64,000 nucleotides of DNA. Source: Clostridia bacterium. GTDB lineage: Bacteria; Bacillota; Clostridia; DUPQ01. The number at the start of each line of letters is the position of its first letter. The stretch's first letter is position 1. A program made the position numbers and the translations under genes. Positions 77-61,432 of the stretch are shown here, one piece after another. The notes under the pieces are model-generated. The model did no database searches. It was not told the origin of the DNA and saw only the letters and a list, made by a program, of their open reading frames with translations. The DNA lies in contig JBAYNV010000003.1 in NCBI GenBank assembly GCA_041678685.1, positions 24 through 64,023 of the forward strand, given 5' to 3'.

Positions 77-304
77 ATGGAAAAATATAGCAATAAAAGC
101 AGACTCAAAGGTTCAGCCACAGTGGAAATGATCATAGTGTTTCCCATAATACTCATTCTGCTGATATCGGTCATATATCTGATGATCATTATCGGGAGCA
201 AAGAGATGATCCATGAGGAGTACAGATTCATGGAATACATAAGAGAAGCAGACAGTTTAGCAAGAAAGGCAGCTTTGGCAGATGAGATCATTACAAAAGA
301 ATAG
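77..304 (+). CDS. TadE-like Flp-pilus pseudopilin/assembly protein (75 aa)
   Basis: N-terminal motif KGSATVEMIIVFPIILILL, typical of the TadE/TadG N-terminal domain, with a single TM helix. It overlaps the next gene by 23 nt. Confidence 0.5.
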   Translation: MEKYSNKSRLKGSATVEMIIVFPIILILLISVIYLMIIIGSKEMIHEEYRFMEYIREADSLARKAALADEIITKE

Positions 305-2267
305 AAAAGGTTCTATTACAGTTTTCTGTGCAATAACGATACCGGCTGTGCTGATACTTTCAATGGTCCTATCGGATATATATATGTTAAGGTCTGCAAA
401 GGCATATACGCAAAAGGCATTGAAAGTCGCATGCGAATGCATCCTCTCTTCATATTCATCATATATGAAAGAAGCATATTCCATCTACGGTTATGAAATG
501 GATGAAGAAGAAAGTGAAACCGTAGTACGCGATATCCTTGCCAAATACTTTTCGGACAGCGGCATACTGTCTATCATTACTGAAGAGATCACAGTGGAAA
601 GAACAGATAAGCTTACCGATGCTAAAATACTGCAGGATCAGATATCAACAGTTATGAACGATGATATATATGCAGTGCTTTTAAAGGAAGTGAATGAAAG
701 GATCCGATCCATATCGACAATGAATGGAGTTTTTAAAGTGCTCAGAGTCAAGATGCAGATGGATGAAGTGATCAGCGGGATACAGAATATCAGAGCGGAA
801 TTCCAGATCATAACAGACAGTATAAACGGGATGACCGAATACATCGATCTTATGAATTATGTATATGAAGTACAGGTCATATATGCATCGATCATGGAAA
901 AAAAGAGCATGGAGCCGAGCGAACTCCTGGAAGAGGAAATAAAGTCGCTTACAAAACAGGCGTTGCGGATAATTGATGAAAATATTGAAAACATCATATA
1001 TGTGATGAAGGAATACAACAGAAAAGGATTGGAACTGCTTCAGGATATGTGCGAGGCCTATATCGACATCCACATGATCTCAGACAGCATGAATGAACTT
1101 ATAAATGAGATCAACGGTGTACCTGAATACCTTATATACATTTTAGAAGGATGCACTGAATTGCTTAACAAGACAGAAACCGCATTCTCAGACAGCGTAT
1201 TCGATATTATTAGAAGAACATTTAATAAAAATATAAATGAACTGGAGGATGTGTGCGATGATGTTTCAAAAGCCGTGACCGAGGGTTTTGTGGAAGATAT
1301 TGTGACTGTTTTTAATAATGCGCTGGGAGGTTATTGCGATATTGTATATGAAGATGCGGAGTTTGATGATTATCTGAATACCTATATCGACGGATTGGAA
1401 TATGACGATCCGAGGACCTTCTTTCAGAAAGTAGCCGAGGATGTGCTGAAAAGCATATCATTTGATGATGATATCATAGACGGTTTTGTTTATCTTATAT
1501 CCGATGACATTGCACGAAGGAACTGCAGTTTTTCCGTGGATACTACAGGAAATACATTAGAAGGTATACTGTCGCAGATGGATGAAATATCCATATCGCT
1601 TGAGGAATTGAGGGAAAGCATACTTCTCAATGAATTCATCCTGCTGTTTTTCAACAGCTATACTGACGATGACGTTAACAGGAACAGATATCTCGACAGT
1701 GAAGTGGAATACATCATTTTCGGAGACAGTGACGCAAATAGAAACCTTAAGTCAGCGAAAGCCTCTCTGATGGGCTTTCGCTTTCTGTCAAACATGCTTC
1801 ATGTGTATTCCGACATGGACAAGACTGTCCGGGCGAAATCGATCGCATCATATGTTGCAGGTTCATGGACATTCGGAGCGGGAACACCTATAGTTGAAAA
1901 TCTCATTCTTTGTTCATGGGCTCTTGGGGAGTCTGCATATGATGTGAACCAGCTTTTTAAAGGGAAAAGCTGTCCTCTGTATAAACTTGACGGTGACTGG
2001 CAGCTGGACATAGGGATAGAGCAAGGAACGGGTAAAACACCTGATTATCTTAAACTTGATTATGAAGATCATCTTCGCATACTGCTTGCAATAACGCCTA
2101 ATGAAACAAAGATACTTCGTATGCTTGACCTGATAGCTCTGAATGCTCCGGGTGACCTTGATATGTCAGATATGTACTGCGGCGTCTATATCCGGATCAC
2201 TGTATCTGTAAGAAGCATGTTTGGCCTTAAAAGATATATATCTATCGAGGTGACAGATGGATTCTAA
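282..2267 (+). CDS. TadG-like large Tad-pilus associated protein (661 aa, acidic, N-terminal TM)
   Basis: N-terminus KGSITVFCAITIPAVLILSMVLSDIYMLRSAKAY matches the TadE/G-like N-terminal domain. It is followed by a large D/E-rich domain. It sits between two TadE-like genes with 4-11 nt overlaps. Confidence 0.5.
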   Translation: MRSLQKNRKGSITVFCAITIPAVLILSMVLSDIYMLRSAKAYTQKALKVACECILSSYSSYMKEAYSIYGYEMDEEESETVVRDILAKYFSDSGILSIITEEITVERTDKLTDAKILQDQISTVMNDDIYAVLLKEVNERIRSISTMNGVFKVLRVKMQMDEVISGIQNIRAEFQIITDSINGMTEYIDLMNYVYEVQVIYASIMEKKSMEPSELLEEEIKSLTKQALRIIDENIENIIYVMKEYNRKGLELLQDMCEAYIDIHMISDSMNELINEINGVPEYLIYILEGCTELLNKTETAFSDSVFDIIRRTFNKNINELEDVCDDVSKAVTEGFVEDIVTVFNNALGGYCDIVYEDAEFDDYLNTYIDGLEYDDPRTFFQKVAEDVLKSISFDDDIIDGFVYLISDDIARRNCSFSVDTTGNTLEGILSQMDEISISLEELRESILLNEFILLFFNSYTDDDVNRNRYLDSEVEYIIFGDSDANRNLKSAKASLMGFRFLSNMLHVYSDMDKTVRAKSIASYVAGSWTFGAGTPIVENLILCSWALGESAYDVNQLFKGKSCPLYKLDGDWQLDIGIEQGTGKTPDYLKLDYEDHLRILLAITPNETKILRMLDLIALNAPGDLDMSDMYCGVYIRITVSVRSMFGLKRYISIEVTDGF

Positions 2268-14856: not shown

Positions 14857-15724
14857 CAATATCATGATCATTGACGCTCATAACCATGCAGACTGGCATA
14901 AAACCGATATGAATGCATTCATAAAAAATATGGATGACAATAATATCGATGTAACATGGCTGTTGTCCTGGGAATGCCCAAGGAAAGAATACGAAAACAA
15001 TAACGGAGCATTATGCTCTTTTCTGGATCCGGGTCCTATTCCTTTTCAGGCAGGATTGGCATATAAGCATGCGCATCCTGACAGATTCGTCCTTGGATAC
15101 TGTCCGGATCCGCGGGATCCTGATGCGATCAATAATCTTAAAGCTGCCGTGTACATACACGGTGTACAGGTATGCGGCGAGCTCAAGGTCAGAATGATGT
15201 ATGACGACTTCGATGCTATAAGGCTTTTCAGATGCGCAGGCGAACTGGGACTTCCGGTAACGATGCATTATGACTATGAATTCAATAAAGCATGGACGAA
15301 TGCATGGCCTAATTTCTGGTATGGCGGAGCGATCGATACATTTGAAAGAGTCCTTAAAAAATGTCCGGAAACGATATTCCTTGGACATGCACCCGGATTC
15401 TGGGCACATATTTCGAATGACGACCTGTATGACAAACAGTCATATCCAAAAGGTCCTGTTATAAAAGGCGGAATGATACCTTATCTTCTTGATAATTATC
15501 CTAACCTGTATTGTGATATGTCTGCTGGAAGCGGGTGCAATGCATTCACGAGAGACCTTGACAATGCTGTTTGGTTCATGAACACCTATCAGGACAGGAT
15601 ACTGTACGCAAGGGACTGGTTCGATACAAGGCACAGGGAGCTTCTCGATTCACTGGATCTGAGTCAGGAAGTTAAAGATAAAATCTACTATAAAAACGCA
15701 TTGAAACTGGTTCCTTTGAAATGA
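14837..15724 (+). CDS. Amidohydrolase-2 family (TIM-barrel metal-dependent hydrolase)
   Basis: IIDAHNHADW metal-binding HxH motif and DxH late motifs. The start may be at 14864 (MIIDAH). Confidence 0.65.
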   Translation: MHRKKDSNIMIIDAHNHADWHKTDMNAFIKNMDDNNIDVTWLLSWECPRKEYENNNGALCSFLDPGPIPFQAGLAYKHAHPDRFVLGYCPDPRDPDAINNLKAAVYIHGVQVCGELKVRMMYDDFDAIRLFRCAGELGLPVTMHYDYEFNKAWTNAWPNFWYGGAIDTFERVLKKCPETIFLGHAPGFWAHISNDDLYDKQSYPKGPVIKGGMIPYLLDNYPNLYCDMSAGSGCNAFTRDLDNAVWFMNTYQDRILYARDWFDTRHRELLDSLDLSQEVKDKIYYKNALKLVPLK

Positions 15725-16278
15725 AGAGGATGCTTGTTTCCGGTTTTTCGAAATTCGCCGGTTTCAATGAGAATATTACAGAGAAACTGATCAGAAAACT
15801 ACCGGACCATATAGGTAAGCATGACATACATACGATCATATTACCTGTGGAGTACGAAAAAGGTTTTGATGTCATGAATGATGAAATAGACAGGTCAAAA
15901 CCGGATATCGTCATTGCAACAGGTATGGCATATTCGAGAAAGAAAATAAGTATAGAAAGATTAGCCGTGAATATCGATCATTCTGATACTGCGGATAATG
16001 CAGGAGTGATAAGAAAAGATCAGATAATCGATCCGAAAGGTGAGGCTGCATATTTTTCCACACTGGAATATGATATCAAAGCCTATTCATCTGGTTTTGT
16101 AACAAATTCGTATAGTGCAGGCACATATATCTGCAACGACCTTTTTTACAGATTGCTCAGCAGCAGAAAAGGGAAGGATGACCCAAAAATATCATTCATA
16201 CATTTTCCCGGAGAGGAAAATCTGGCATATGAAAAACAACTCAGTACCTTTATTGAAATACTGAGCTCTCTTGATTAG
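15721..16278 (+). CDS. pcp: Pyroglutamyl-peptidase I (peptidase C15)
   Basis: MKRMLVSGFSKF N-terminus, catalytic Cys in SAGTYICNDLFY, His in FIHFPG. Confidence 0.85.
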   Translation: MKRMLVSGFSKFAGFNENITEKLIRKLPDHIGKHDIHTIILPVEYEKGFDVMNDEIDRSKPDIVIATGMAYSRKKISIERLAVNIDHSDTADNAGVIRKDQIIDPKGEAAYFSTLEYDIKAYSSGFVTNSYSAGTYICNDLFYRLLSSRKGKDDPKISFIHFPGEENLAYEKQLSTFIEILSSLD

Positions 16279-16293
16279 TTATCTGTTTATCTT

Positions 16294-17196
16294 TTATATC
16301 CCGTACAGGTCCAATGCATTCAATTCATTGCTGACATTGTGTTTGGTGAGATTTGATTTCGCATAATGGAACACCTCAGCTATGACCGGATCGACCCATC
16401 CTTTGGCAAACAGTCTTTTTGCAAAACTCACGGCAAGATCATCGATATCGCCTTTATCAACGCACAGTTCAATATAATTCCAGAGAACATCGTTTGTCAG
16501 TTCCACTCCGTTCATCCTCTGGACCTCTATCTTGTCTCTTGCTTCAGCCAGATCGCTATTACACAGTGATGTAAAAAGAAGCAGGTTGATATAGTCGCGG
16601 TCAACAAACCTCGGTATCTTTGTAAACAGTGAGGCTATGGATGTGTCTTCCATCAGGGTCTTGTCGGTAACAGAAAGCTTTTCCAGTAGTTTCCAGCGGA
16701 ATTCATTATCCAGTGCTTTGTATTCCAGACACTGTTTAAGCATTTCCTCAGAATTATATGGACGTTTCCCAAGCACTGCATACCAATAGGAAAGCAGGAT
16801 CTGAGCAAGAAGATTCTTTTTATTGCCCAGATATATCTCGTTTGTCTTTTTCATTTTACCTGCCATTTTGAAGCCGGAAACATACCCTCTTACATACTTC
16901 TTGAGAAGGCTTGTCTCCCTCATAAGATGACCGGTAATCATCTCAACGAACATGTCCCTGTTGGTATCCGATCCGGTAAGGTATTCCTTATACTTTTCGT
17001 ATGCCTTCAACGCAGCCGGATATTTGGTCGAACAGGCATAAGAGGTTATAAGACCCATCGCTGATTTCTGCGGTTCGATGCCATGCTCCAGCAGGTATTT
17101 GAAACCTTTCTCAGCTTCGATATAGTCACCATCTCTAAGACATATGCCTGAGTATGAATAATATAACTTCAGATCTTTGAATTCGTTCTTTGCCAT
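16294..17196 (-). CDS. Soluble TPR-like helical protein, third gene of MotAB-like cassette (300 aa)
   Basis: No TM helices. TPR-like helical repeats (YIEAEKGFKYLLEHG..., AALKAYEKYKEY). Its ATG at 17196 lies 4 nt after an AGGAG that overlaps the MotB-like stop TAG, so the two are translationally coupled. Confidence 0.6.
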   Translation of the reverse strand: MAKNEFKDLKLYYSYSGICLRDGDYIEAEKGFKYLLEHGIEPQKSAMGLITSYACSTKYPAALKAYEKYKEYLTGSDTNRDMFVEMITGHLMRETSLLKKYVRGYVSGFKMAGKMKKTNEIYLGNKKNLLAQILLSYWYAVLGKRPYNSEEMLKQCLEYKALDNEFRWKLLEKLSVTDKTLMEDTSIASLFTKIPRFVDRDYINLLLFTSLCNSDLAEARDKIEVQRMNGVELTNDVLWNYIELCVDKGDIDDLAVSFAKRLFAKGWVDPVIAEVFHYAKSNLTKHNVSNELNALDLYGI

Positions 17197-17203
17197 GATG
17201 CTC

Positions 17204-18214
17204 CTATTCAGCCTTATCAAGATAATCCTGTATGATCTGCCCTGCATTGTCATCCTTCAATATTATAGAGAATTCTATACGTCTGTTCTGAGAAAGGATA
17301 ATTGATATCGGTCGTGATTCAGAATAGGCCATTGCTCCGAAATACTTCTGGTATTTGGTCTCAAGATCAGGATTGCTTTTCATAAGATATGCAAGAACCG
17401 CTTCTGCTCTATTTGATGAGTACATAAGATTTTCATAATAATCTCCATCTGCACTTGCATGACCTTCAACTACTATTGATTCTATATATGATCCCGATTC
17501 ATCGATAATATCTTCAAATGCTGCAGCAAGTTTATCCAGAAGAGCATATGCGCTTGGATTGATTACCCAACTTTTTGTTTCAAATAAAACCGCTTCGTTT
17601 ATCTGCAAATTGGCGTCATCAGTAATAGAGACCTTGCCCGGACCTAAGGCTTTATCTATAGCTGCCTTTACGGTTTCGAATATGGTCGCCTGTAATACGG
17701 CAACTGTCTGCAGCTGATCTCTCATGGATTCAAGTTCAATAGTGTTTAAAGCTATCAGTCCCAGAAGTTCTGATTTCTGAGCTTCCAGTTCAGCCTGTTG
17801 CTGTCCCAATATTATGATCAGGTTCTCAAGATTTGTCGCTTCCGCTTCAGACATATTCAATGCCTCCTGTTTGGCTTCCAGCTCTGTTTCAAGGTTTATA
17901 AGCTCGATCCCTTTGGCCTCAAGCGAGTTTTCCAGCATTATAAGTATCGAACGCTGTTCTTCAAGCTCCTGTTCAGTTTCAAGAAGAGCAAGCTCCTTGG
18001 CTGCAAGATCGTTCCTCGTGGTTTCCAGCTGAGTTCCCGTTGCAATATTAGTCGCTTCCTGCTCATCCAGGTTGATCGATATTATTATGTTTTTTATGAA
18101 AACGATCAAAACAAGAAACAGCATTATGAGCACCATTGTGGACATTACATCCGCAAAAGATGGCCAGTAATTTTCCGGTTCACTTCTTTTCATATAACTT
18201 ACTCTTTGTTTCAA
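17204..18214 (-). CDS. MotB-like protein: TM anchor with conserved Asp, long coiled coil, OmpA-like peptidoglycan-binding domain (336 aa)
   Basis: WPSFADVMSTMVLIMLFLV is a MotB/ExbD-type TM with the channel Asp. Residues 50-190 are heptad-rich (LETE.ELE.Q). The C-terminus IVVEGHASADG...NLMYSSNRAEAVLAYL is an OmpA/MotB_C signature. TTG start with an AGAGGTG RBS. Confidence 0.7.
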   Translation of the reverse strand: MKQRVSYMKRSEPENYWPSFADVMSTMVLIMLFLVLIVFIKNIIISINLDEQEATNIATGTQLETTRNDLAAKELALLETEQELEEQRSILIMLENSLEAKGIELINLETELEAKQEALNMSEAEATNLENLIIILGQQQAELEAQKSELLGLIALNTIELESMRDQLQTVAVLQATIFETVKAAIDKALGPGKVSITDDANLQINEAVLFETKSWVINPSAYALLDKLAAAFEDIIDESGSYIESIVVEGHASADGDYYENLMYSSNRAEAVLAYLMKSNPDLETKYQKYFGAMAYSESRPISIILSQNRRIEFSIILKDDNAGQIIQDYLDKAE

Positions 18215-18239
18215 ATCAATTCACCTCTTTTATCATCTG

Positions 18240-19700
18240 TCAGTCATTTTTGATTGCTTTTTCAATGTCATCAAGTTTCTTCTGTATTTTTCCTGCCGCT
18301 GATTTGTTGTAGATCATCGTCTGTTCAGGTAACGCTACTATGGTTTGTGCAAGGATCTTCTGATTGTTATTGAAAGCTTCGCTCATCTGTAATACTGTTG
18401 CAACGGATTTCTCCATTGTCGCTGAAGTCTTGGATGCAATTATCTCGCTGCTTTCTTGTAAGGCTTCTGCAAAAGCATTCTTAAGCTTTTCGCTGAGATC
18501 GCCTATTTCACCTGTTGTCGAGATGATAGCCTGTTTGAATGAATCGCTCATATCCAGTACAGTTGCTGCATTAGCATCCGAAGATACCTTCAATGCTGAT
18601 GACAGGTCACTTAGCGAGGTGACTGCTCTGTCGATCTGGCCTGTAAGAGTTGATAGCTCATCAATAGTTTCCTTATTATTTGAAGCCATCTGATTTGCAG
18701 CATCTTTGACGTCCTCTGAGAATCCGCGGATAGCATCGTAATTTTTCATTATGAGATTTGCTGAATCTGATAGCGATTCGCTCATCTGTATGAAGGAGAC
18801 ATCCATTTTACTGACATTTTCCTTAAGGTTAAGGTTGAAGTCAGACATATCCTTCATGGCTACCGCCAATGTGCTTATTGCAGAATCAAATCTCTCAACG
18901 GTATTATCGAGAGCCTGTGAGGAAACTGAAACATCCATGACCACATTGGTCAGTTTGTCGCCGAATGACTCGACAGTCTTCTTCAATGACTCTTCAATTT
19001 TGAGACCGAAATCAGTGAATGTATCTTTTAAAATACGGTTCATCATCGTGTATTCAGTTTCTTTATCCTTAGCGATGAGGACTGCGATGCTGTTATCAAG
19101 ATACTCTTCGATATCTATCATAAGCGAACGTTTTTCTTCTTCGCAGTCAAATATGATAAGGCTGAAGTTCAGGAAAACTGATCCGACCAAACCTACAAGG
19201 CTTGTTGAAAACGCAGCTCCCATTCCTTTTGCGGCTCCGGCAAGTCTGGTAAGTATCTCATTCCAGTCAAGGCTTGCAGACCCTATATCCTGAAGCAGAA
19301 CATTTACAAGTTCGCTAACAGAGATCGTAAGACCTACGAATGTACCTAAAAGGCCTAATGTGACCATGATCGACTGGCTTTTCCGTACGAAGATCTCGCC
19401 ATACGAGCACAACTTCATGTGATCGGTGAAATTCTTTTCAACTATTGCCTGAGTGTTTACATTATTATTATTTATTTCGCCAGCAACTTTATAGTCTTGA
19501 ACGATCTCGTTGAGCATATCATTCTTGAATGTGCCTGCGCGTCTGTTCTGACGGTTGTTGATCTGTCTGCTTATTTTCGCATATTGGGATCTTATCAGCA
19601 GGTTGATAACAAAAGCTGCTATGAAAACTATTACTATTGTGACTATCACCAGTTTCCCGGAAATGTCAATGGCCTTAAAAAGTGAAATTAGATTCTCCAT
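18240..19700 (-). CDS. MotA/TolQ/ExbB-family proton-channel protein with ~300-aa helical C-terminal tail (486 aa)
   Basis: Three TM helices. TM2 carries the MVTLGLLGTFVGL signature of the MotA/TolQ/ExbB family. The long S/D/A/K-rich predicted alpha-helical tail follows. The start at the second ATG is preceded by AAGGAGAA. Confidence 0.7.
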   Translation of the reverse strand: MENLISLFKAIDISGKLVIVTIVIVFIAAFVINLLIRSQYAKISRQINNRQNRRAGTFKNDMLNEIVQDYKVAGEINNNNVNTQAIVEKNFTDHMKLCSYGEIFVRKSQSIMVTLGLLGTFVGLTISVSELVNVLLQDIGSASLDWNEILTRLAGAAKGMGAAFSTSLVGLVGSVFLNFSLIIFDCEEEKRSLMIDIEEYLDNSIAVLIAKDKETEYTMMNRILKDTFTDFGLKIEESLKKTVESFGDKLTNVVMDVSVSSQALDNTVERFDSAISTLAVAMKDMSDFNLNLKENVSKMDVSFIQMSESLSDSANLIMKNYDAIRGFSEDVKDAANQMASNNKETIDELSTLTGQIDRAVTSLSDLSSALKVSSDANAATVLDMSDSFKQAIISTTGEIGDLSEKLKNAFAEALQESSEIIASKTSATMEKSVATVLQMSEAFNNNQKILAQTIVALPEQTMIYNKSAAGKIQKKLDDIEKAIKND

Positions 19701-19959
19701 AAATTCTCCTTGCATTGTAAATGCTTTAATGCTGCTATTTTATCACATAATCAAATGATTTAGTAATGTTCACACAATGTTTACATTATCAAGCCAAGTA
19801 TGCGGTGTTTATGTGAAAAAGAATAATTATTCAGATATTAAATGAATAAATACTACAATTTTCATCATTCAGCATCAGGCATTAGACGAAGGAATTAATA
19901 AAAAGTTCACATTTTAATCCCGCTGTGATATACTTTTTACGAGAGAGGGAAGTGGGTAA

Positions 19960-20421
19960 ATGCTAAAAAAATACGTCATAATGCCGGCATTGATAGCGGC
20001 TATATACTGTGCCCTTACGCTTATGTTCATGCCGATCAGTTTTGGCCCGGTGCAAGTCCGTATTGCCGAAGCGCTTACCATACTTCCATATTTCACTCCT
20101 TCAGCAATATATGGGTTGTTCATAGGATGCCTGCTGTCGAACATGATCGGCGGAGCCGGGATACTTGATATAGTGTTCGGTTCGCTTGCAACATTATTGG
20201 CAGCTTCACTCACACATGCATTAAAAAATAAATTTCTTGCTCCATGGCCTCCGGTAATAATAAACATGTTTGTAGTAGGATATATACTTAAAATATATTA
20301 TGGTATGGATTATTGGGTCGCAGTAGCTTCTGTCGGGCTTGGACAGATCATATCATGCTGCGGATTGGGTTATCTGCTTCTTTTCCAGTTGGATAAATAC
20401 AAGGACAGGTTATTCACATGA
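19960..20421 (+). CDS. Small polytopic membrane protein, possible QueT-family (queuosine precursor) / ECF S-component-like transporter
   Basis: 153 aa with 4-5 TM helices. PISFGPVQVRIAEALTILP resembles the QueT family from memory. I cannot verify this without a search. Confidence 0.4.
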   Translation: MLKKYVIMPALIAAIYCALTLMFMPISFGPVQVRIAEALTILPYFTPSAIYGLFIGCLLSNMIGGAGILDIVFGSLATLLAASLTHALKNKFLAPWPPVIINMFVVGYILKIYYGMDYWVAVASVGLGQIISCCGLGYLLLFQLDKYKDRLFT

Positions 20422-56029: not shown

Positions 56030-56145
56030 AACTTATCAAGAGTGGCTGAGAGAATGGCTCAATGACGCCCGGCAACCTGCACAGAGCGAGGTGCCAATTC
56101 CATATAGATGAGGTTAAAGGTCTCGTCATGAGACCTTTTTTTATA
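56030..56145 (+). promoter_or_regulatory. SAM-I (S-box) riboswitch with intrinsic terminator, upstream of metK
   Basis: CTTATCAAGAG...GGC...GCCCGGCAACC...GAGGTGCCAATTCC...AGATGAG matches the S-box conserved blocks. The terminator is GGTCTCGTCATGAGACC plus T7 at 56119-56143. Confidence 0.8.
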
Positions 56146-56183
56146 CGATGAAAGGAGAGTATGCGGAGCATACGAGAGAGAAA

Positions 56184-57341
56184 ATGAAGAAAATATTTAC
56201 GTCAGAATCAGTGACAGAGGGGCATCCGGATAAACTATGTGACCAGATATCCGATGCGATACTGGATGCGATATTTAAGAAGGATATAAATGCAAGAGTG
56301 GCATGTGAGACAACAGTGACGACAGGACTTATACATGTCATGGGTGAAATAACGACCGAGTGTTATGTTGATATAGCGAAAATCGCACGGAATACGGTAT
56401 TGGATGCCGGTTACACGAGAGCAAAATACGGATTTGATGGTGAAACATGCGGAGTTATAACATCCATAAATGAACAGTCTCCTGACATATCTATGGGAGT
56501 AGACAGTTCCTTTGATATAGCAGGTGATCAGGGAGCAGGAGATCAGGGAATGATGTTCGGATATGCATGCGATGAGACGCCTCAGCTTATGCCTTATCCT
56601 ATACAGGCAGCGCATACACTTGCAAAAAGGCTTGCATGCGTAAGAAAAGAAACGCGCGGATCATTTCTAAGACCTGACGGAAAGACTCAGGTCACGGTAG
56701 AATACGACGGGAATACTCCAAAGAGGATAGACACCATAGTCGTTTCATCCCAGCATAGTGATGATGTGTCCATTGAGGAATTGAGAAAATATATAAAAGA
56801 AGCAGTTATATTACCTGTAATGGATCCGAAAATGTTAGATGATGATACTAAAATATTTATTAATCCTACCGGCAGATTTGTTGTAGGCGGTCCTAAAGCT
56901 GATTCAGGTCTTACCGGAAGGAAGATAATAGTTGACACATACGGAGGAATGGGAAGGCATGGAGGCGGTTCATTTTCCGGTAAGGATCCGTCAAAAGTCG
57001 ACAGATCAGCGGCTTATGCTGCAAGGTATGTAGCAAAAAACATCGTTGCAGCCGGAATAGCAAAGAGATGCGAAATACAGATAGCTTATGCTATTGGCGT
57101 TGCGAGACCTGTTTCAATAGATATCAATACATTCGGTACATCTAAAGTCAATGATGAGAAGATAGCAAAAGCAGTAGGTCACGCATTCGACCTGAGGCCT
57201 TATGCGATAATTGAAACTCTCGGTCTTAAAGCTCCTATTTACAGACAGACTGCAACATACGGGCACTTTGGAAGAGATGATCTTGACCTCTCATGGGAAA
57301 AGACCGATAAGGCAGACGAGTTAAGAGACCTGTTAAAGTAA
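56184..57341 (+). CDS. metK: S-adenosylmethionine synthetase
   Basis: [25 protein letters not shown]-terminus and the [20 protein letters not shown]-loop. Confidence 0.95.
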
Positions 57342-58107: not shown

Positions 58108-59463
58108 ATGTTTGTCAGTCAGAGATACAAGATATTAAAAGCTTTGAACGAGAAAGGAAGGGAGAAAAAATACCTTGTATTTGATGATGAGGAAAAACAG
58201 AGAAGAGTTATAAAAGAAGTTAAAAAAGATGCAGCCGGTAATATGGGTATACTGCAGAGTATCGGACATGCAGGTCTTCCAAAAGTATATGATGTTTTCT
58301 ATAACAGTGATGATACATGCATAGTGACTGAATATATCGAAGGAGAAAATCTATATGAATATATACAGAACAGAGGTGTGATGTCATGGTGGGATGCTCT
58401 TGATGTATTCATAAGGATCTCGTATATCATCAGGTATCTGCACTGTCTCAAACCTGACCGAATGATCCATGGTAGCGTACATCCTGAAAATATAATTTTT
58501 AAAGACGGAAATATATATCTGGTCGATTACGGTATAAGCGATGAAAAGAACACGGCTTATATGGCTCCTGAGCTCCTTGCAGGATTGGATACATCAAAGG
58601 AAAGTGATATATATGCCCTCGGTATGGTGCTCAACTATATGGTATATGGAAAAGATAAAAGGATGCTTTATTCCAAAGAAAATGAAAATGACCTTAACAG
58701 ACTGATAAGAAGATGTACTGCACTAAACATGAAAAACAGGATCTGCGATGTGAACATGGTCCTAAATGAAGCTGAAAGGATCAAAAAAAGACTGGAGCTC
58801 GATAAAAAAGGTGAAATCATAACAAAGGTCACAACACTGGCCGGTCCATTAGATTGCGCGTATTTACTGGCCGATTCATATTCCCGTAAATTTAGTAAAA
58901 AAGTACTTCTGATAGATACTGATATACTTCATGCTTCGTTTACTGCAGATAAGAAAAATTTGAATCCTGATCTGCAGACATTATTGGAAAAGGATGAAGT
59001 ATGTGATTCTCTGCACAGTGTTGCAGAGAATAAGGGTCTGTATATAATACCATGCGCGCTGGAAATTGAAGGATATGAGAATGTTATCTACTCAAAACTG
59101 GAAATACTGTTATCAAAACTTACTGATGATTTTCCTGTCATATTCATACACTGTACGGATTTTATATATGATTCTTTGTTCATGAACTGCATATTGATGA
59201 GTGATCATGTCCTTTTCTGCCTTGATAATGTACTGAAGGATCTAAAACTGTTCAATCAGATCGCGACATATCTGTGTAATAAACATGGAACGGATCCGGA
59301 CAGGTATAATTACTGCATTTATGAAAACAGGGATGAAAAGATACATATAAATGGCGTCGACTGCCATATTTGTGGCAGATTCATCGGTACCATCAGAAGC
59401 AGGCGTCGTTTTGCAGATAAGGATTGTGAAAAAATATTATCAGTGTTATATGGGAAGGATTGA
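58108..59463 (+). CDS. TadZ/CpaE-like protein with N-terminal Hanks-type pseudokinase domain and degenerate ParA/MinD-like domain
   Basis: Kinase subdomains are present but the catalytic residues are lost: YKILKALNEKGREKKYLV (G-loop lost), VIKEV, HGSVHPEN in place of HRDLKPEN, DYG, YMAPE, DIYALGMV. The C-terminal half aligns to the CpaE ATPase (KKVLLIDTD), but Walker A is replaced by LAGPLDCAY. Confidence 0.55.
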   Translation: MFVSQRYKILKALNEKGREKKYLVFDDEEKQRRVIKEVKKDAAGNMGILQSIGHAGLPKVYDVFYNSDDTCIVTEYIEGENLYEYIQNRGVMSWWDALDVFIRISYIIRYLHCLKPDRMIHGSVHPENIIFKDGNIYLVDYGISDEKNTAYMAPELLAGLDTSKESDIYALGMVLNYMVYGKDKRMLYSKENENDLNRLIRRCTALNMKNRICDVNMVLNEAERIKKRLELDKKGEIITKVTTLAGPLDCAYLLADSYSRKFSKKVLLIDTDILHASFTADKKNLNPDLQTLLEKDEVCDSLHSVAENKGLYIIPCALEIEGYENVIYSKLEILLSKLTDDFPVIFIHCTDFIYDSLFMNCILMSDHVLFCLDNVLKDLKLFNQIATYLCNKHGTDPDRYNYCIYENRDEKIHINGVDCHICGRFIGTIRSRRRFADKDCEKILSVLYGKD

Positions 59464-60650
59464 CTATGGCAGTACTAAAAAGATTATGTGAATATAATGA
59501 AACAAACACGAATATGAAGTATGCAAAAGGCGACTACCCTTTAGGAGAAGTCGTTATAGATATCGTCAGTGAAATACTGGAGACATCTCCCGAACTCGTT
59601 ATAGATGCATATACCGATAAAAAAAGACGTCAGATGCTTGAAAGCAGAATAATAAAAATACTGGAGAAAGAGGAATACTTTGCTATCGGCTCAAAAATGG
59701 AAATGATCAAAAAAGTATTTGATTTTATGTTTGGATATGGGCAGCTTCAGGAATATATCGATGATGAGGATATCTCTGACATAGACGGAGTCAGGTATAA
59801 CCGGTTTTCGATAAAGAAAAAAGGTATACGTTATCCCATAGAACTGGATTTTGGCAATGAAATGAATTACCTGGTTTATTGCAAACTCATAGCTCTTAGA
59901 AACGGAGGGATACTGAACGATAACGACAGTCATTGCAGGGTAGCGGATGTCGAACGTAAACTGAGAATAAACATATCTATTTACCCCAGGAATATTTCAG
60001 GATCTGCAATATGCATACGAAAACACAGAAATAACGCATATACGATAAATGACCTTGTGACGCTTGGCATGCTGGACTGTAAAAACAAGGACCTGATCAT
60101 GCAGACTGCAGAAAACCGCAAAACAATGATCATATGCGGCAAAGGCGGCAGCGGAAAAACAACATTATTACGGGCTATAATAAACAGTTTACCTGACATG
60201 GAGAGGGTATTGATCGTCGAATCAGATGCGGAACTGTATCCGAAGAAGGACTTCTGTATCGAACAAAGAGTGAAGAGAAGTAATGAAGGGGGCAATCCGA
60301 TCACACTTGATATGCTTATAAAAGATGGTCTGACAATGTCATTGGATACATACTGCATCGGAGAGATCATAGGCAGCGAGGCCATAGATTTCATAGATGC
60401 CTGCTGTTCCGGACACCGCTTTTTTACTACCATGCATGCCGATAAAGCGCAAGACTGTGCAAATCGCATCGTTGCATTGGCAAAATCCTCTGACAAGCAG
60501 AGAGATGAATCCATGCTTGCAAGAATGTTCGCAGATGGAGTCGATATGGTCATACATATGGAGGATTTCAAAGTCGATGAGATATTGAATGTGAAATATT
60601 ACGATACCACTAAAAACGAGATCATATATGAAAGGATATACAGCCAATGA
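59460..60650 (+). CDS. cpaF: CpaF/TadA-family pilus assembly ATPase
   Basis: Walker A MIICGKGGSGKTTLLRAI, Asp and His boxes of the T2SS-E/VirB11 family, and a 4-nt overlap with the upstream gene. Confidence 0.85.
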   Translation: MTMAVLKRLCEYNETNTNMKYAKGDYPLGEVVIDIVSEILETSPELVIDAYTDKKRRQMLESRIIKILEKEEYFAIGSKMEMIKKVFDFMFGYGQLQEYIDDEDISDIDGVRYNRFSIKKKGIRYPIELDFGNEMNYLVYCKLIALRNGGILNDNDSHCRVADVERKLRINISIYPRNISGSAICIRKHRNNAYTINDLVTLGMLDCKNKDLIMQTAENRKTMIICGKGGSGKTTLLRAIINSLPDMERVLIVESDAELYPKKDFCIEQRVKRSNEGGNPITLDMLIKDGLTMSLDTYCIGEIIGSEAIDFIDACCSGHRFFTTMHADKAQDCANRIVALAKSSDKQRDESMLARMFADGVDMVIHMEDFKVDEILNVKYYDTTKNEIIYERIYSQ

Positions 60651-61432
60651 CAATACTGATAATAAACTCAGTAACAGCTGTTTTGCTTGCTTATCTTATA
60701 ACCAAAAGCGATCAACCTGATACTGTATATGATAAATTAAAATATCTCACCGGTTTCATATCGGTAACATTGCTTTTATTTACAGCAGTAATAGTGAACA
60801 GAAAAATAGACTACATACTGACATCCGTTTCGGTTGCGCTTATGCCTGCTGTATTGCCATATGTCGTACATGATGTATATAAAAATGTTATGTATGCAAG
60901 GGAACAGAAAAGCATCGTAGACCTGCTGCTTCTCATGAGCAAGTGGAGCGCAGTAAAGAATGATGTGGTTTTCTGCCTTAACAAAGCTGACAGATCTGAT
61001 CTTAAACAACCTGTAAAGAGGCTTATAAATGATGCATGCAACAGGATAGGAAGAGGTATGGGAGTAAGCGATGCTTTATCTATTTTCGAAAAAGAAGCAC
61101 AAAGTGAGGAACTGAGATATGTAATGATGAACATACGGTATGCATATGAAAAAGGAGGCGATCTTTACAGTATATTTAAGAGCATGGAAAATCAGTTTTT
61201 CAAACTGGATGAAGAAATATATAAAAGGAAGATCTCCACTTCAAAAGACAGATATGCGGTATATGCGACTATTCTGCTTGTCCTTATCACATTTTACTAC
61301 TTCGTGTTTAAGAATGAATCAGTCAAAGCTTTCTATCTGTCTACTGATAGCGGTAAGCTATATCTTGCACTGTTCGCATTTCTGTTCTTTATTGGAACCA
61401 TAACAACCATAAGCGCTGTGAAGCAGAATTAG
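60647..61432 (+). CDS. tadB: TadB-like (T2SS-F domain) inner-membrane platform protein
   Basis: N- and C-terminal TM segments flank a T2SSF-like cytoplasmic domain. It sits immediately after cpaF. Confidence 0.6.
   Translation: MTILIINSVTAVLLAYLITKSDQPDTVYDKLKYLTGFISVTLLLFTAVIVNRKIDYILTSVSVALMPAVLPYVVHDVYKNVMYAREQKSIVDLLLLMSKWSAVKNDVVFCLNKADRSDLKQPVKRLINDACNRIGRGMGVSDALSIFEKEAQSEELRYVMMNIRYAYEKGGDLYSIFKSMENQFFKLDEEIYKRKISTSKDRYAVYATILLVLITFYYFVFKNESVKAFYLSTDSGKLYLALFAFLFFIGTITTISAVKQN

What the first reader, a model, noticed from the sequence alone, without database searches (positions are those of the whole stretch)
16294..19959. Compact MotA/ExbB-like + MotB/OmpA-like + TPR-like three-gene cassette with long coiled-coil extensions and no flagellar context (Zorya-like or novel stator-driven system)
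**Gene 1 (19700->18240, minus strand)**
- It has the MotA/TolQ/ExbB channel signature MVTLGLLGTFVGL in a 3-TM core.
- It carries a roughly 300-aa S/D/A/K-rich predicted alpha-helical cytoplasmic tail.

**Gene 2 (18214->17204)**
- It has the MotB/ExbD-type TM with the conserved channel Asp (WPSFADVMSTMVLIMLF).
- It carries a roughly 140-aa heptad-rich coiled coil.
- Its C-terminus is an OmpA/MotB-C peptidoglycan-binding signature (GHASADG...NLMYSSNRAEAVLAYL).

**Gene 3 (17196->16294)**
- It encodes a soluble TPR-like protein.

**Operon structure and context**
- The three genes form one tight operon: a 25-nt gap, then a stop codon overlapping the RBS.
- They are wedged on the opposite strand between pcp and a transporter gene, in an otherwise + strand housekeeping block.
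- No fli/flg/che genes occur anywhere in the 64 kb, and the only surface organelle here is a Tad pilus.

**Interpretation**
- A MotAB-type ion-driven stator whose A subunit has a long helical tail, plus cytoplasmic partner genes, is the architecture of the Zorya anti-phage system (ZorA/ZorB).
- The third gene, however, shows no nuclease or EH-domain motif. This may be a divergent Zorya-like variant or an uncharacterised proton-motive signal-transducing system.
- The long coiled coil in the B subunit could span the thick Gram-positive wall.
Basis: partly seen in the sequence, partly recalled or inferred. Interest (0 to 1): 0.85.

Follow-up and report, generated by a model that had tools for sequence, protein, structure and literature searches.

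The report
ZorAB-like wall-anchored motor with TPR partner
Three tightly packed genes encode a Zorya-like, ion-driven membrane motor tied to the cell wall by a long coiled-coil stalk, plus a helical-repeat partner protein; the set is uncharacterised, is inherited vertically in many Clostridia, and shows none of the genomic hallmarks of a phage-defence island.

Summary
**Observation.** It is confirmed exactly. Three co-oriented minus-strand genes are present:
- A, 19700→18240, 486 aa
- B, 18214→17204, 336 aa
- C, 17196→16294, 300 aa

**What the proteins are.**
- A has an ExbB/TolQ/ZorA-type 3-TM fold and a ~300-aa all-helical cytoplasmic tail.
- B has the MotB/ZorB transmembrane Asp, a leucine-zipper stalk and an OmpA-like peptidoglycan-binding domain.
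- C is a confidently modelled TPR-like solenoid with no catalytic motif.
- By sequence, ZorA and ZorB are the closest solved relatives of A and B. Scores are far below membership level, and no Zorya effector is present.

**Distribution.**
- The cassette is a co-evolving unit in about 50 Clostridial species.
- It sits among housekeeping genes, and synteny is retained in related lineages.
- No relatives were found on plasmids, phages or viral contigs, and defence genes are not enriched among its neighbours.
- A short-tailed A+B form lacking C occurs in other Clostridia. C is present in 48/48 long-tail loci and 0/18 short-tail loci, so C probably works with the distal tail.
- B stalk length varies only in steps of 7 or 11 residues, as expected for a length-tuned coiled coil.

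**Verdict.** This is a new variant of the ZorAB-like 5:2 motor family. It is most likely an envelope-to-cytoplasm transducer. A defence role is possible but unsupported.

The parts
18240..19700 (-). Gene A: ZorA/ExbB-like channel subunit, 486 aa, stop codon included
   Evidence: - ORF; start ATG 19700 preceded by AAGGAG.
- Foldseek matches to ExbB, TolQ and ZorA.
- PDB profile hit to ZorA 8vvn_C, E 2.6e-5.
- PADLOC ZorA models hit in 43/43 family members.
19143..19649 (-). A residues 18-186: TM1 (18-36), a K/R-rich cytoplasmic loop with the invariant VNTQA motif, TM2 (~110-135, LGLLGTFxGLT) and TM3 (~165-186, AFxTSLxG)
   Evidence: - Hydropathy analysis.
- Invariant columns in the alignments.
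- pLDDT 70-87 in the AlphaFold model.
- About 230 residues align to ExbB/TolQ.
18243..19133 (-). A residues 190-486: all-helical cytoplasmic tail. The proximal part (195-345) is the most conserved part of the protein. The distal part (346-486) is present only where gene C is present.
   Evidence: - Helices 186-253, 264-373 and 378-485.
- Hydrophobic periodicity of 3.55-3.65 residues.
- Conservation profile along the protein.
- C present in 48/48 long-tail loci and 0/18 short-tail loci.
17204..18214 (-). Gene B: ZorB/MotB-like subunit, 336 aa, TTG start, stop codon included
   Evidence: - ORF; start context.
- Pfam OmpA, E 2e-10.
- PADLOC ZorB1, E 3.8e-25.
- PDB profile best hit ZorB 8vvn_B, E 2.2e-19.
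18080..18166 (-). B residues 17-45: transmembrane helix with invariant W17, P18, F20 and D22 (the channel Asp, codon 18149-18151)
   Evidence: - Alignment of 22 homologues.
- The transmembrane segment aligns to the ZorB transmembrane segment.
17720..18079 (-). B residues 46-165: extracytoplasmic leucine-zipper coiled-coil stalk
   Evidence: - Heptad layout of the stalk sequence.
- The D22→R165 distance in 73 homologues takes only the values 87, 94, 101, 108, 115, 129, 143 or 105, 112.
17255..17617 (-). B residues ~200-320: OmpA-like peptidoglycan-binding domain (invariant N262, S266, R269, V273 and the NRRIE motif)
   Evidence: - Pfam OmpA match.
- Invariant columns in the alignment.
- PDB matches to the ZorB, MotS, MotB and Pal peptidoglycan-binding domains.
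16294..17196 (-). Gene C: cytoplasmic TPR-like helical-repeat protein, 300 aa, stop codon included
   Evidence: - Start site.
- AlphaFold model with pLDDT 91 and pTM 0.83, 18 helices.
- Some homologues carry Pfam TPR hits.
- Invariant residues are mostly aromatic or structural.
19737..19745 (-). Candidate extended -10 element, TGATAAAAT, for the operon
   Evidence: - TGnTA(A/G)AAT is conserved in the window and L001-L006.
- This is inferred and not experimentally tested.
19768..19789 (-). Conserved upstream block ATAATGTAAACATTGTGTGAAC, containing the palindrome AATGTAAACATT (19776-19787); possibly an operator
   Evidence: - Conserved in the window and L001-L005, and partly in L006.
- Its function is unknown.

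Best explanation
The three genes encode a non-flagellar member of the MotAB/ExbBD/ZorAB '5:2' ion-driven motor superfamily whose closest characterised relatives are ZorA and ZorB.

**Proposed mechanism**
- B dimerises through a long extracytoplasmic leucine-zipper stalk. Its OmpA-like head is fixed in the peptidoglycan.
- B's transmembrane Asp22 sits inside a ring of A subunits. This is presumed to be A5B2, by homology.
- Ion flow past Asp22 and the invariant TM2/TM3 Thr residues of A turns, or conformationally drives, the A ring.
- The bundled, ~300-residue helical cytoplasmic tails of A move with the ring.
- The distal third of the tail, together with the TPR-like protein C, forms an add-on output or adaptor module that engages an unknown cytoplasmic partner.
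- The stalk length is lineage-specific and changes only in register-preserving steps. This suggests it is matched to the membrane-to-wall distance.

**Biological role**
- The cassette is a vertically inherited chromosomal unit in core-genome surroundings.
- Its role is therefore more likely envelope-state sensing or force transduction than a mobile anti-phage system.

**Shown versus inferred**
- Shown: domain folds, homology, conservation, co-inheritance, phyletic coupling of C with the distal tail, quantised stalk lengths and genomic context.
- Inferred: 5:2 stoichiometry, rotation, C-tail binding and physiological role.
For: **Gene structure**
-.

**Protein A**
- The N-terminal ~210 residues are modelled at pLDDT 70-87, and the tail is all-helical.
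- Foldseek finds ExbB, TolQ, ZorA and PomA.
- The only 5:2-motor hit in the PDB sequence search is ZorA, E 2.6e-5.
- 43/43 members match ZorA models and 20/43 match Pfam MotA_ExbB.
- G119-T120-F121, T166-S167 and other channel residues are invariant.

**Protein B**
- W17, P18, F20 and D22 are invariant, as are the OmpA-domain motifs.
- The best PDB hit is ZorB, with both the transmembrane segment and the peptidoglycan-binding domain aligned.
- Stalk lengths are quantised in steps of 7 or 11 residues in 73/73 homologues, and the heptad pattern is clear.

**Protein C**
- The model is confident (pLDDT 91) and TPR-like.
- No enzyme family matches.

**The cassette as a unit**
- Pairwise identities of A, B and C are correlated, Spearman 0.79-0.89 over 49 cassettes.
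- C accompanies 48/48 long-tail A genes and 0/18 short-tail A genes.

**Genomic context**
- Synteny is conserved in the window, L001-L006, L081 and L082. It is partly conserved (pcp and amidohydrolase nearby) at 52% A identity.
- Neighbours are housekeeping genes.
- No PADLOC family recurs in more than 2 of 133 neighbours.
- Nothing was found on plasmids, phages or IMG/VR contigs.
- GC content matches the flanks.
Against: - No multimer model or experiment supports the 5:2 stoichiometry or rotation.
- The tail is modelled at low confidence as a monomer (pLDDT 33-65).
- C-tail binding rests only on phyletic co-occurrence.
- No partner or output is identified, so the physiological role is conjecture.
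- Core-like context does not exclude defence. The nearest characterised relatives are defence proteins.
- C is the fastest-evolving component, at a median pairwise identity of 27%.
- One species, Acetivibrio straminisolvens, has lost B, so the system is dispensable there.
- Presence or absence across complete genomes of a clade could not be measured.
Confidence: 0.55

Rival explanations
1. A new Zorya subtype: an anti-phage system of monoderm Clostridia. The ZorAB-like sensor detects envelope perturbation during phage entry, and its tail recruits the TPR protein C. C in turn recruits or activates a nuclease or other effector encoded elsewhere.
For: - ZorA and ZorB are the nearest characterised relatives of A and B.
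- The three-gene layout and the size of A (486 aa) resemble type II Zorya. ZorA2 model lengths are 420-590.
- The long helical tail is conserved, as in all Zorya types (PMC11946911).
- C evolves fastest among the three proteins.
- B has been lost in one species.
Against: - No ZorC, ZorD, ZorE, ZorF or ZorG equivalent is present. C has no PADLOC hit and no conserved catalytic residues.
- Scores are far below family level.
- The A model has no cytoplasmic beta-sheet. That sheet is described as typical of Zorya proteins (PMC12505986).
- Synteny is conserved and the neighbours are housekeeping genes.
- Defence genes are not enriched among neighbours.
- The family is absent from plasmids, phages and viral contigs.
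- Zorya is under-represented in monoderms (PMC11946911).
Confidence: 0.2
2. A static or gated envelope device rather than a rotary motor. This would be a peptidoglycan-to-membrane tether, or a wall-tension-gated ion channel, in which the A tail is merely a scaffold.
For: - The peptidoglycan-binding head sits on a rigid stalk of tuned length.
- The short A+B form works without C.
- No output enzyme is encoded.
Against: - The channel Asp and the TM2/TM3 Thr/Gly motifs typical of active 5:2 motors are strictly invariant.
- The proximal tail is the most conserved region of A. This argues for a specific functional interface.
Confidence: 0.12
3. A motility stator. This would be an alternative flagellar stator, or a motor for gliding or for the Tad/type IV pilus.
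For: - The proteins belong to the MotA/MotB superfamily.
- A Tad-like locus lies in the same window.
- Several host genera are motile (own knowledge).
Against: - A has an ExbB-type 3-TM topology, not the 4-TM MotA topology with a FliG-binding loop.
- NCBIfam MotB, MotS and MotD matches score 16-27 bits against cut-offs of 250-283, and cover only the OmpA domain.
- No flagellar, chemotaxis or pilus gene lies next to the cassette in any locus examined.
- The Tad genes are about 40 kb away.
- There is no convincing sigma-D-type promoter. The 9 matches found are about what chance would give.
Confidence: 0.05
4. A relic or analogue of the Ton/Tol energisers (ExbBD/TolQR) that powers an envelope transport or division process. 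In this reading C plays a CpoB/YbgF-like TPR role.
For: - ExbB and TolQ are the best structural matches for the A core.
- Ton-like remnants have been reported in some Clostridia (PMC12204202).
Against: - B carries an OmpA-like domain and a coiled coil, not an ExbD/TolR fold.
- No TonB, TolA, TolB or Pal gene was seen in the neighbours checked.
- C has no signal peptide, so it is cytoplasmic, unlike the periplasmic CpoB.
- The A tail has no counterpart in ExbB or TolQ.
Confidence: 0.05

Closest known systems
Zorya ZorA/ZorB (types I-III; structures 8qyd and 8vvn)
   Same: - The A subunit has an ExbB-like 3-TM core plus a long helical cytoplasmic tail.
- The B subunit has a transmembrane Asp and an OmpA-like peptidoglycan-binding domain.
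- Gene order is A then B, followed by a soluble partner.
- These are the closest solved relatives by sequence.
   Different: - No ZorC, ZorD, ZorE, ZorF or ZorG is present. The partner is a non-enzymatic TPR-like protein.
- Similarity is only weak: 25-50 bits for A and 37 bits for B against the 400-bit ZorB1 cut-off.
- The A model has no cytoplasmic beta-sheet.
- B has a 60-120-residue coiled-coil stalk.
- Hosts are monoderm, the context is vertically inherited core genome, and there is no defence-island association.
ExbB-ExbD / TolQ-TolR
   Same: - These are the best structural matches to the A core: about 230 residues aligned and TM-score normalised to the target up to 0.61.
- A carries the same TM2 'GLxGT' and TM3 Thr motifs.
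   Different: - B is of the MotB/OmpA type, not the ExbD/TolR type.
- There is no TonB or TolA.
- A has a 300-residue tail.
- The hosts have no outer membrane.
Flagellar stators MotAB / MotPS / PomAB
   Same: - The B architecture is similar: N-terminal transmembrane Asp followed by an OmpA-like peptidoglycan anchor.
- The principle is an ion-driven 5:2 motor.
   Different: - A has 3 rather than 4 transmembrane helices, and no FliG-interacting loop.
- There is no flagellar gene context.
- Scores are far below the NCBIfam cut-offs.
PRK09039-type 'peptidoglycan-binding protein' (NCBIfam NF006543-6): TM + coiled coil + OmpA
   Same: - B matches its N-terminal transmembrane and coiled-coil part (residues 15-172, E 5e-12) and its OmpA-like part.
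- The overall architecture is the same.
   Different: - The score is 46 bits against a cut-off of 305.
- That family is itself uncharacterised.
Short-form A+B pairs of other Clostridia (Wukongibacter, Natronincola, Marinisporobacter, Thermohalobacter and others; L058-L080)
   Same: - The A core and proximal tail are the same (34-39% identity over residues 1-~340).
- B is the same, including the quantised stalk.
   Different: - They lack the distal tail (346-486) and gene C.

Membership tests
Zorya anti-phage system (types I-III) | A ZorA-type subunit: MotA/ExbB-like core plus a long cytoplasmic tail, matching ZorA profiles at family level | tested here: inconclusive
   - The architecture is met.
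- ZorA models are hit by 43/43 members, but only weakly: best E 1e-14, and 31.5 bits for the window protein.
- No NCBIfam ZorA match was found.
Zorya anti-phage system (types I-III) | A ZorB-type subunit with a transmembrane Asp and a peptidoglycan-binding domain, at family-level score | tested here: not met
   - The architecture is met.
- PADLOC ZorB1 scores 86.8 bits.
- NCBIfam ZorB1 scores 36.7 bits and ZorB2 25.3 bits, each against a 400-bit cut-off.
- B also has an extra coiled-coil stalk.
Zorya anti-phage system (types I-III) | Adjacent type-specific effector genes (ZorC+ZorD, ZorE, or ZorF+ZorG) | tested here: not met
   - Gene C has no PADLOC, Pfam or NCBIfam hit.
- Its fold is TPR-like only.
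- The neighbours are pcp and QueT.
Zorya anti-phage system (types I-III) | Protection against phage infection | not testable with these tools
   This needs a phage challenge of a strain expressing the cassette.
Zorya anti-phage system (types I-III) | Defence-island or mobile, patchy genomic distribution (typical of the family, not strictly defining) | tested here: not met
   - Synteny is conserved in 9/9 near relatives, including the window.
- Neighbours are housekeeping genes.
- No PADLOC family occurs in more than 2 of 133 neighbours.
- There are no plasmid, phage or IMG/VR relatives.
MotA/TolQ/ExbB-MotB/ExbD 5:2 ion-driven motor superfamily | The A subunit has the ExbB/MotA channel fold with conserved TM2/TM3 motifs | tested here: met
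   - Foldseek finds ExbB, TolQ, ZorA and PomA at probability 0.99-1.00.
- Pfam MotA_ExbB is hit by 20/43 members.
- The LGLLGTFxGLT and AFxTSLxG motifs are invariant.
MotA/TolQ/ExbB-MotB/ExbD 5:2 ion-driven motor superfamily | The B subunit has a single N-terminal transmembrane helix carrying the essential Asp | tested here: met
   - D22 is invariant in 22/22 aligned homologues and serves as the anchor column in 74/74.
- The transmembrane segment aligns to that of ZorB.
MotA/TolQ/ExbB-MotB/ExbD 5:2 ion-driven motor superfamily | A5B2 stoichiometry and ion-driven rotation | not testable with these tools
   - No multimer prediction tool was available.
Flagellar stator (MotAB/MotPS/PomAB) | A 4-TM MotA with a FliG-interacting cytoplasmic loop, together with flagellar gene context | tested here: not met
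   - A has three transmembrane segments in an ExbB-like topology.
- MotB, MotS and MotD models score 16-27 bits against cut-offs of 250-283.
- No flagellar neighbours were seen.
Ton/Tol systems (ExbBD-TonB, TolQRA-Pal) | An ExbD/TolR-type B subunit and a TonB/TolA partner | tested here: not met
   - B is OmpA/MotB-like.
- No TonB or TolA domain was found among the neighbours checked.
TPR repeat proteins (gene C) | A helix-turn-helix repeat solenoid that matches TPR structures or profiles | tested here: met
   - The AlphaFold model has pLDDT 91 and 18 helices.
- Pfam TPR families are recorded on some homologues.
- The window protein itself has no Pfam TPR hit, and its C-terminal half matches no specific family.

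The most novel reading that the evidence does not exclude
This may be a previously unrecognised class of ZorAB-like motor, specific to monoderm Clostridia.

- A heptad-tunable coiled-coil stalk acts as a molecular ruler between the membrane and the wall.
- Changes in that distance or in wall integrity (growth, damage or phage entry) gate ion flow.
- The signal is transmitted by movement of the pentameric A tail to a dedicated TPR adaptor.
- The system would be either a fourth, effector-less type of Zorya immunity or a new wall-homeostasis signalling machine.
Probability: 0.25. Interest if true: 0.8.

Novelty: new variant of a known kind. Interest (0 to 1): 0.58.

Why it matters
Ion-driven 5:2 motors are known to power flagella, Ton/Tol, gliding/T9SS and Zorya immunity. 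All the well-studied non-flagellar cases are in diderm bacteria.

This cassette would be a conserved, non-flagellar, ZorAB-like motor in single-membrane bacteria. It has three unusual features:
- a wall anchor on a stalk whose length is tuned in heptad steps;
- a strongly conserved cytoplasmic tail;
- a modular TPR partner that appears and disappears together with the distal tail.

This gives a tractable system for two questions:
- What do ZorAB-type tails signal to when no nuclease is attached?
- How does a membrane motor reach the peptidoglycan of a Gram-positive envelope?

If the system turned out to be defensive, it would extend Zorya into a group where it is considered rare.

Tried and rejected
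**Function-specific families**
- Pfam, NCBIfam and PADLOC were scanned for gene C. Nothing was found.

**Literature**
- Searches for a described Clostridial MotA/OmpA/TPR cassette, or for a TPR-containing Zorya type, found nothing.

**Mobility**
- tblastn of A against plasmids and phages, and a scan of IMG/VR, gave no relatives.

**Presence/absence test**
- A scan of metagenome contigs with the adjacent QueT gene found only two close relatives. Both carry the cassette, so the test is weak.

**Regulon clues**
- k-mer and sigma-D searches of 75 upstream regions gave only sigma-A-like extended -10 elements. The number of sigma-D-like matches was at chance level.
- Rfam found no riboswitch at the locus.

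**Structure comparison**
- The fold search of C against AFDB50 could not be run, because that library was unavailable.

**Explanations rejected**
- Flagellar stator, Ton/Tol relic and Tad-pilus motor were considered and rejected on topology, scores and context.

**Defence neighbours**
- The few PADLOC hits among neighbours (mad3, AriA, DrmC, DolB, TRIP13 and others) were not traced individually.
- Some probably reflect generic ATPase, PLD or ligase homology. For example, a cardiolipin-synthase-like PLD and ClpB-like proteins were seen. This attribution is an inference.

Full report
**1. Observation**

ORF listing shows three consecutive minus-strand ORFs between pcp (15721-16278, +) and a QueT transporter gene (19960-20421, +).

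- A starts at ATG 19700, seven bases after AAGGAG. It is 486 aa, the length of nearly all homologues.
- B starts at TTG 18214, after AGAGGTGA and 25 nt past the A stop codon.
- C starts at ATG 17196, and its GGAG overlaps the B stop codon (TAGGAG).

Other checks:
- pcp and C converge with a 15-nt gap.
- All four quoted peptide motifs are present at A112, B17, B251 and B262.
- GC content (0.39-0.41) matches the flanks. Only the strand skews flip.
- The window proteins that were scanned are housekeeping proteins.
- A Tad-like ATPase/T2SSF pair lies about 40 kb away.

**2. Protein A**

Topology:
- Hydropathy gives three transmembrane segments at 18-36, ~110-135 and ~165-186.
- A K/R-rich loop follows TM1. 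This gives an N-out, tail-in topology like ExbB, TolQ and ZorA.

Structure, from an AlphaFold model built on 43 homologues:
- The first ~210 residues are modelled at pLDDT 70-87.
- The rest forms three long helices (186-253, 264-373, 378-485) at low confidence, as expected for a monomer of an oligomeric bundle.
- No beta-strand is predicted.

Relatives:
- Foldseek against the PDB returns ExbB and TolQ first (E from 6e-5, about 230 aligned residues), then ZorA (8vvn, 8qyd) and PomA.
- By sequence profile, the only 5:2-motor chain found in the PDB is type I ZorA 8vvn_C (E 2.6e-5). The other hits are apolipoprotein-like helical repeats matching the tail.
- All 43 family members hit PADLOC ZorA models, but weakly (best E 1e-14; 31.5 bits for the window protein). 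20 of 43 hit Pfam MotA_ExbB.

Conservation:
- The TM2 motif LGLLGTFxGLT and the TM3 motif AFxTSLxG are invariant.
- The proximal tail (195-345) is the most conserved part of the protein. It carries the motifs IEEYLDN, DKETEY and MDVSF.
- Residues 360-440 are the least conserved, and residues 441-470 are conserved again.
- The tail has strong amphipathic periodicity of 3.55-3.65 residues.

**3. Protein B**

An alignment of 22 diverse homologues shows the following:
- W17, P18, F20 and D22 in the transmembrane helix are invariant.
- The middle segment is variable in length and rich in Glu, Leu and Ala.
- The OmpA-like domain is conserved, with invariant N262, S266, R269, V273 and the NRRIE motif.

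Family matches:
- Pfam OmpA, E 2e-10.
- PADLOC ZorB1, E 3.8e-25.
- NCBIfam matches are all far below cut-off: ZorB1 at 36.7 bits against 400, MotS at 26.8 against 264, and PRK09039 'peptidoglycan-binding protein' at 46 against 305.
- The best solved relative by profile is ZorB 8vvn_B (E 2.2e-19). Both the transmembrane segment and the peptidoglycan-binding domain align. MotS and MotB come next.

The stalk:
- It reads as a leucine zipper in a constant register for about 13 heptads.
- Across 73 homologues, the distance from the channel Asp to the invariant Arg165 takes only the values 87, 94, 101, 108, 115, 129 and 143 (58 proteins) or 105 and 112 (15 proteins).
- Every difference is therefore built from steps of 7 or 11 residues. 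These are the indels that preserve coiled-coil register.
- This is direct evolutionary evidence for a continuous coiled coil whose length is tuned between lineages.
- At about 0.15 nm per residue (own knowledge), the stalk between the membrane and the OmpA-like domain spans roughly 9-18 nm. It is longest in the window's clade.

**4. Protein C**

- With 30 homologues, the model is confident (pLDDT 91, pTM 0.83) and consists of 18 helices.
- Some homologues carry Pfam TPR hits. The window protein has none.
- The sequence has no signal peptide or transmembrane segment.
- The invariant residues are Y, F, W, G, A, P, N128 and R167. No Asp/Glu/His/Cys/Ser/Lys constellation suggests catalysis.
- C is best read as a cytoplasmic protein-binding adaptor.

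**5. Distribution and context**

Occurrence:
- Homologues of A are confined to Clostridia in the searches run. They include many digester MAGs and Acetivibrio, Herbivorax, Thermoclostridium and Ruminiclostridium.
- 296 GTDB species genomes encode a relative, of which the best 80 were examined.

Two forms exist:
- The long form has A of ~480-530 aa, followed by B and C.
- The short form has A of 317-377 aa, matching residues 1-~340, followed by B only. It is found in Wukongibacter, Natronincola, Marinisporobacter, Thermohalobacter, Paramaledivibacter and others.
- With a profile HMM for C, 48/48 long-form loci with enough downstream sequence have C. 0/18 short-form loci have it anywhere within ±8 kb.
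- The distal tail and C therefore form one evolutionary module.

Inheritance:
- Pairwise identities of A, B and C are correlated across 49 cassettes (Spearman 0.79-0.89). C evolves fastest, at a median of 27%.
- The window's gene order (DEAD helicase, amidohydrolase, pcp | C-B-A | QueT, PFK, FBA) is retained in L001-L006, L081 and L082. In those loci A identity is 65-78% and the housekeeping flanks are 46-87% identical.
- At 52% A identity, pcp and the amidohydrolase are still nearby.
- Other clades have their own conserved housekeeping flanks. These include HAD hydrolase, homocysteine synthesis, peptidases, aldolase, ApbE, ClpB-like, YunB and LigA.

Tests for a defence or mobile context:
- Of 133 neighbouring proteins from 28 loci, no PADLOC family recurs in more than two.
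- No relative of A is found in 72,556 plasmids, 50,697 phage records or 2.9 million viral contigs.
- In Acetivibrio straminisolvens, B is cleanly deleted and C is frameshifted.

Wider family:
- In the 50%-clustered library, 3050 proteins match the A profile at E ≤ 1e-3 and 100 at E ≤ 1e-30.
- More distant long-tailed relatives also give only weak ZorA matches.
- The cassette therefore sits in a large, mostly unstudied ZorA-like region of the superfamily.

**6. Mechanism**

Homology to solved ExbBD, MotAB and ZorAB complexes supports the following model. It is inferred by homology and was not tested here.
- B2 is anchored in the peptidoglycan through the OmpA-like heads at the end of a dimeric coiled coil.
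- The two Asp22 helices sit inside an A5 ring.
- Ion flow drives rotation or cycling of the ring and of the bundled tails.

The strict invariance of the channel residues argues that the ion pathway is active.

The phyletic coupling argues that C docks on the distal tail. The high conservation of the proximal tail, even in the short form, points to an additional unknown conserved partner.

Core-genome context, vertical inheritance and the lack of any effector favour an envelope-sensing or force-transducing role over a mobile defence system. However, the nearest characterised relatives are defence proteins, so that reading keeps about 0.2 probability.

**7. Comparison and novelty**

- The cassette fails the Zorya membership tests on effectors, profile scores and context.
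- It fails the flagellar-stator tests on topology, scores and context.
- It fails the Ton/Tol tests on the type of B subunit and the absence of TonB or TolA.
- It passes the superfamily tests that could be run.
- No paper in the searchable library describes it. Hu et al. note that Zorya is under-represented in monoderms (PMC11946911).
- I rate it a new variant of a known kind.
- It is of moderate-to-good interest for three reasons: the quantised stalk, the modular tail-plus-TPR output, and the chance to study a ZorAB-type motor without a nuclease in a Gram-positive envelope.

Noticed in passing
window 17720-18079 (B stalk); L001-L080: The B stalk length (Asp22 to Arg165) in 73 homologues takes only nine values. 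All differences are built from steps of 7 or 11 residues. The window's clade has the longest stalk, at 143 residues.
   Followed up: yes
L058-L080 (e.g. L065 8016-10087, Wukongibacter baidiensis): A short-form subfamily exists: A of 317-377 aa plus B, without the distal tail and without gene C. Its neighbours are variable and include SLH-domain proteins, LysM-CAP, a GGDEF response regulator and a Na:Ala symporter.
   Followed up: partly
L054 7944-10491 (Acetivibrio straminisolvens JCM 21531): The cassette is degenerate. A is intact, B is absent (57-nt gap between A and C), and C is split by a frameshift. This could be real decay or a draft-assembly error.
   Followed up: partly
window 19768-19789 (-): A conserved upstream block, ATAATGTAAACATTGTGTGAAC, contains the perfect palindrome AATGTAAACATT. 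It lies upstream of a conserved extended -10 element (TGATAAAAT, 19737-19745). It is shared with L001-L005, and no regulator has been identified.
   Followed up: partly
window 19906-19934 (+): The divergent QueT gene has a conserved TTCACA-17-TATACT promoter-like site with a TG extension. No preQ1 riboswitch was detected upstream of it by Rfam.
   Followed up: no
window 56030-56114 (+): A SAM (S-box) riboswitch at 68 bits lies upstream of the ORF at 56148-57341.
   Followed up: no
window 58108-61432 (+) and 282-2267 (+): A Ser/Thr protein kinase gene is directly followed by a Tad-like secretion ATPase (T2SSE) and a T2SSF membrane protein. A DUF5702 protein lies at the other end of the window.
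   Followed up: no
L048, L050, L064 (e.g. L050 7200-13412): In one clade the cassette is flanked on the same strand by the sporulation gene yunB upstream and by the NAD-dependent DNA ligase gene ligA downstream.
   Followed up: no
one search hit table (P0019, P0060, P0102, P0111, P0118): Some A homologues carry precomputed hits to very recent Pfam families (PF28175, PF28082, PF28544). These did not appear in the local Pfam scans, and their identity could not be checked.
   Followed up: no
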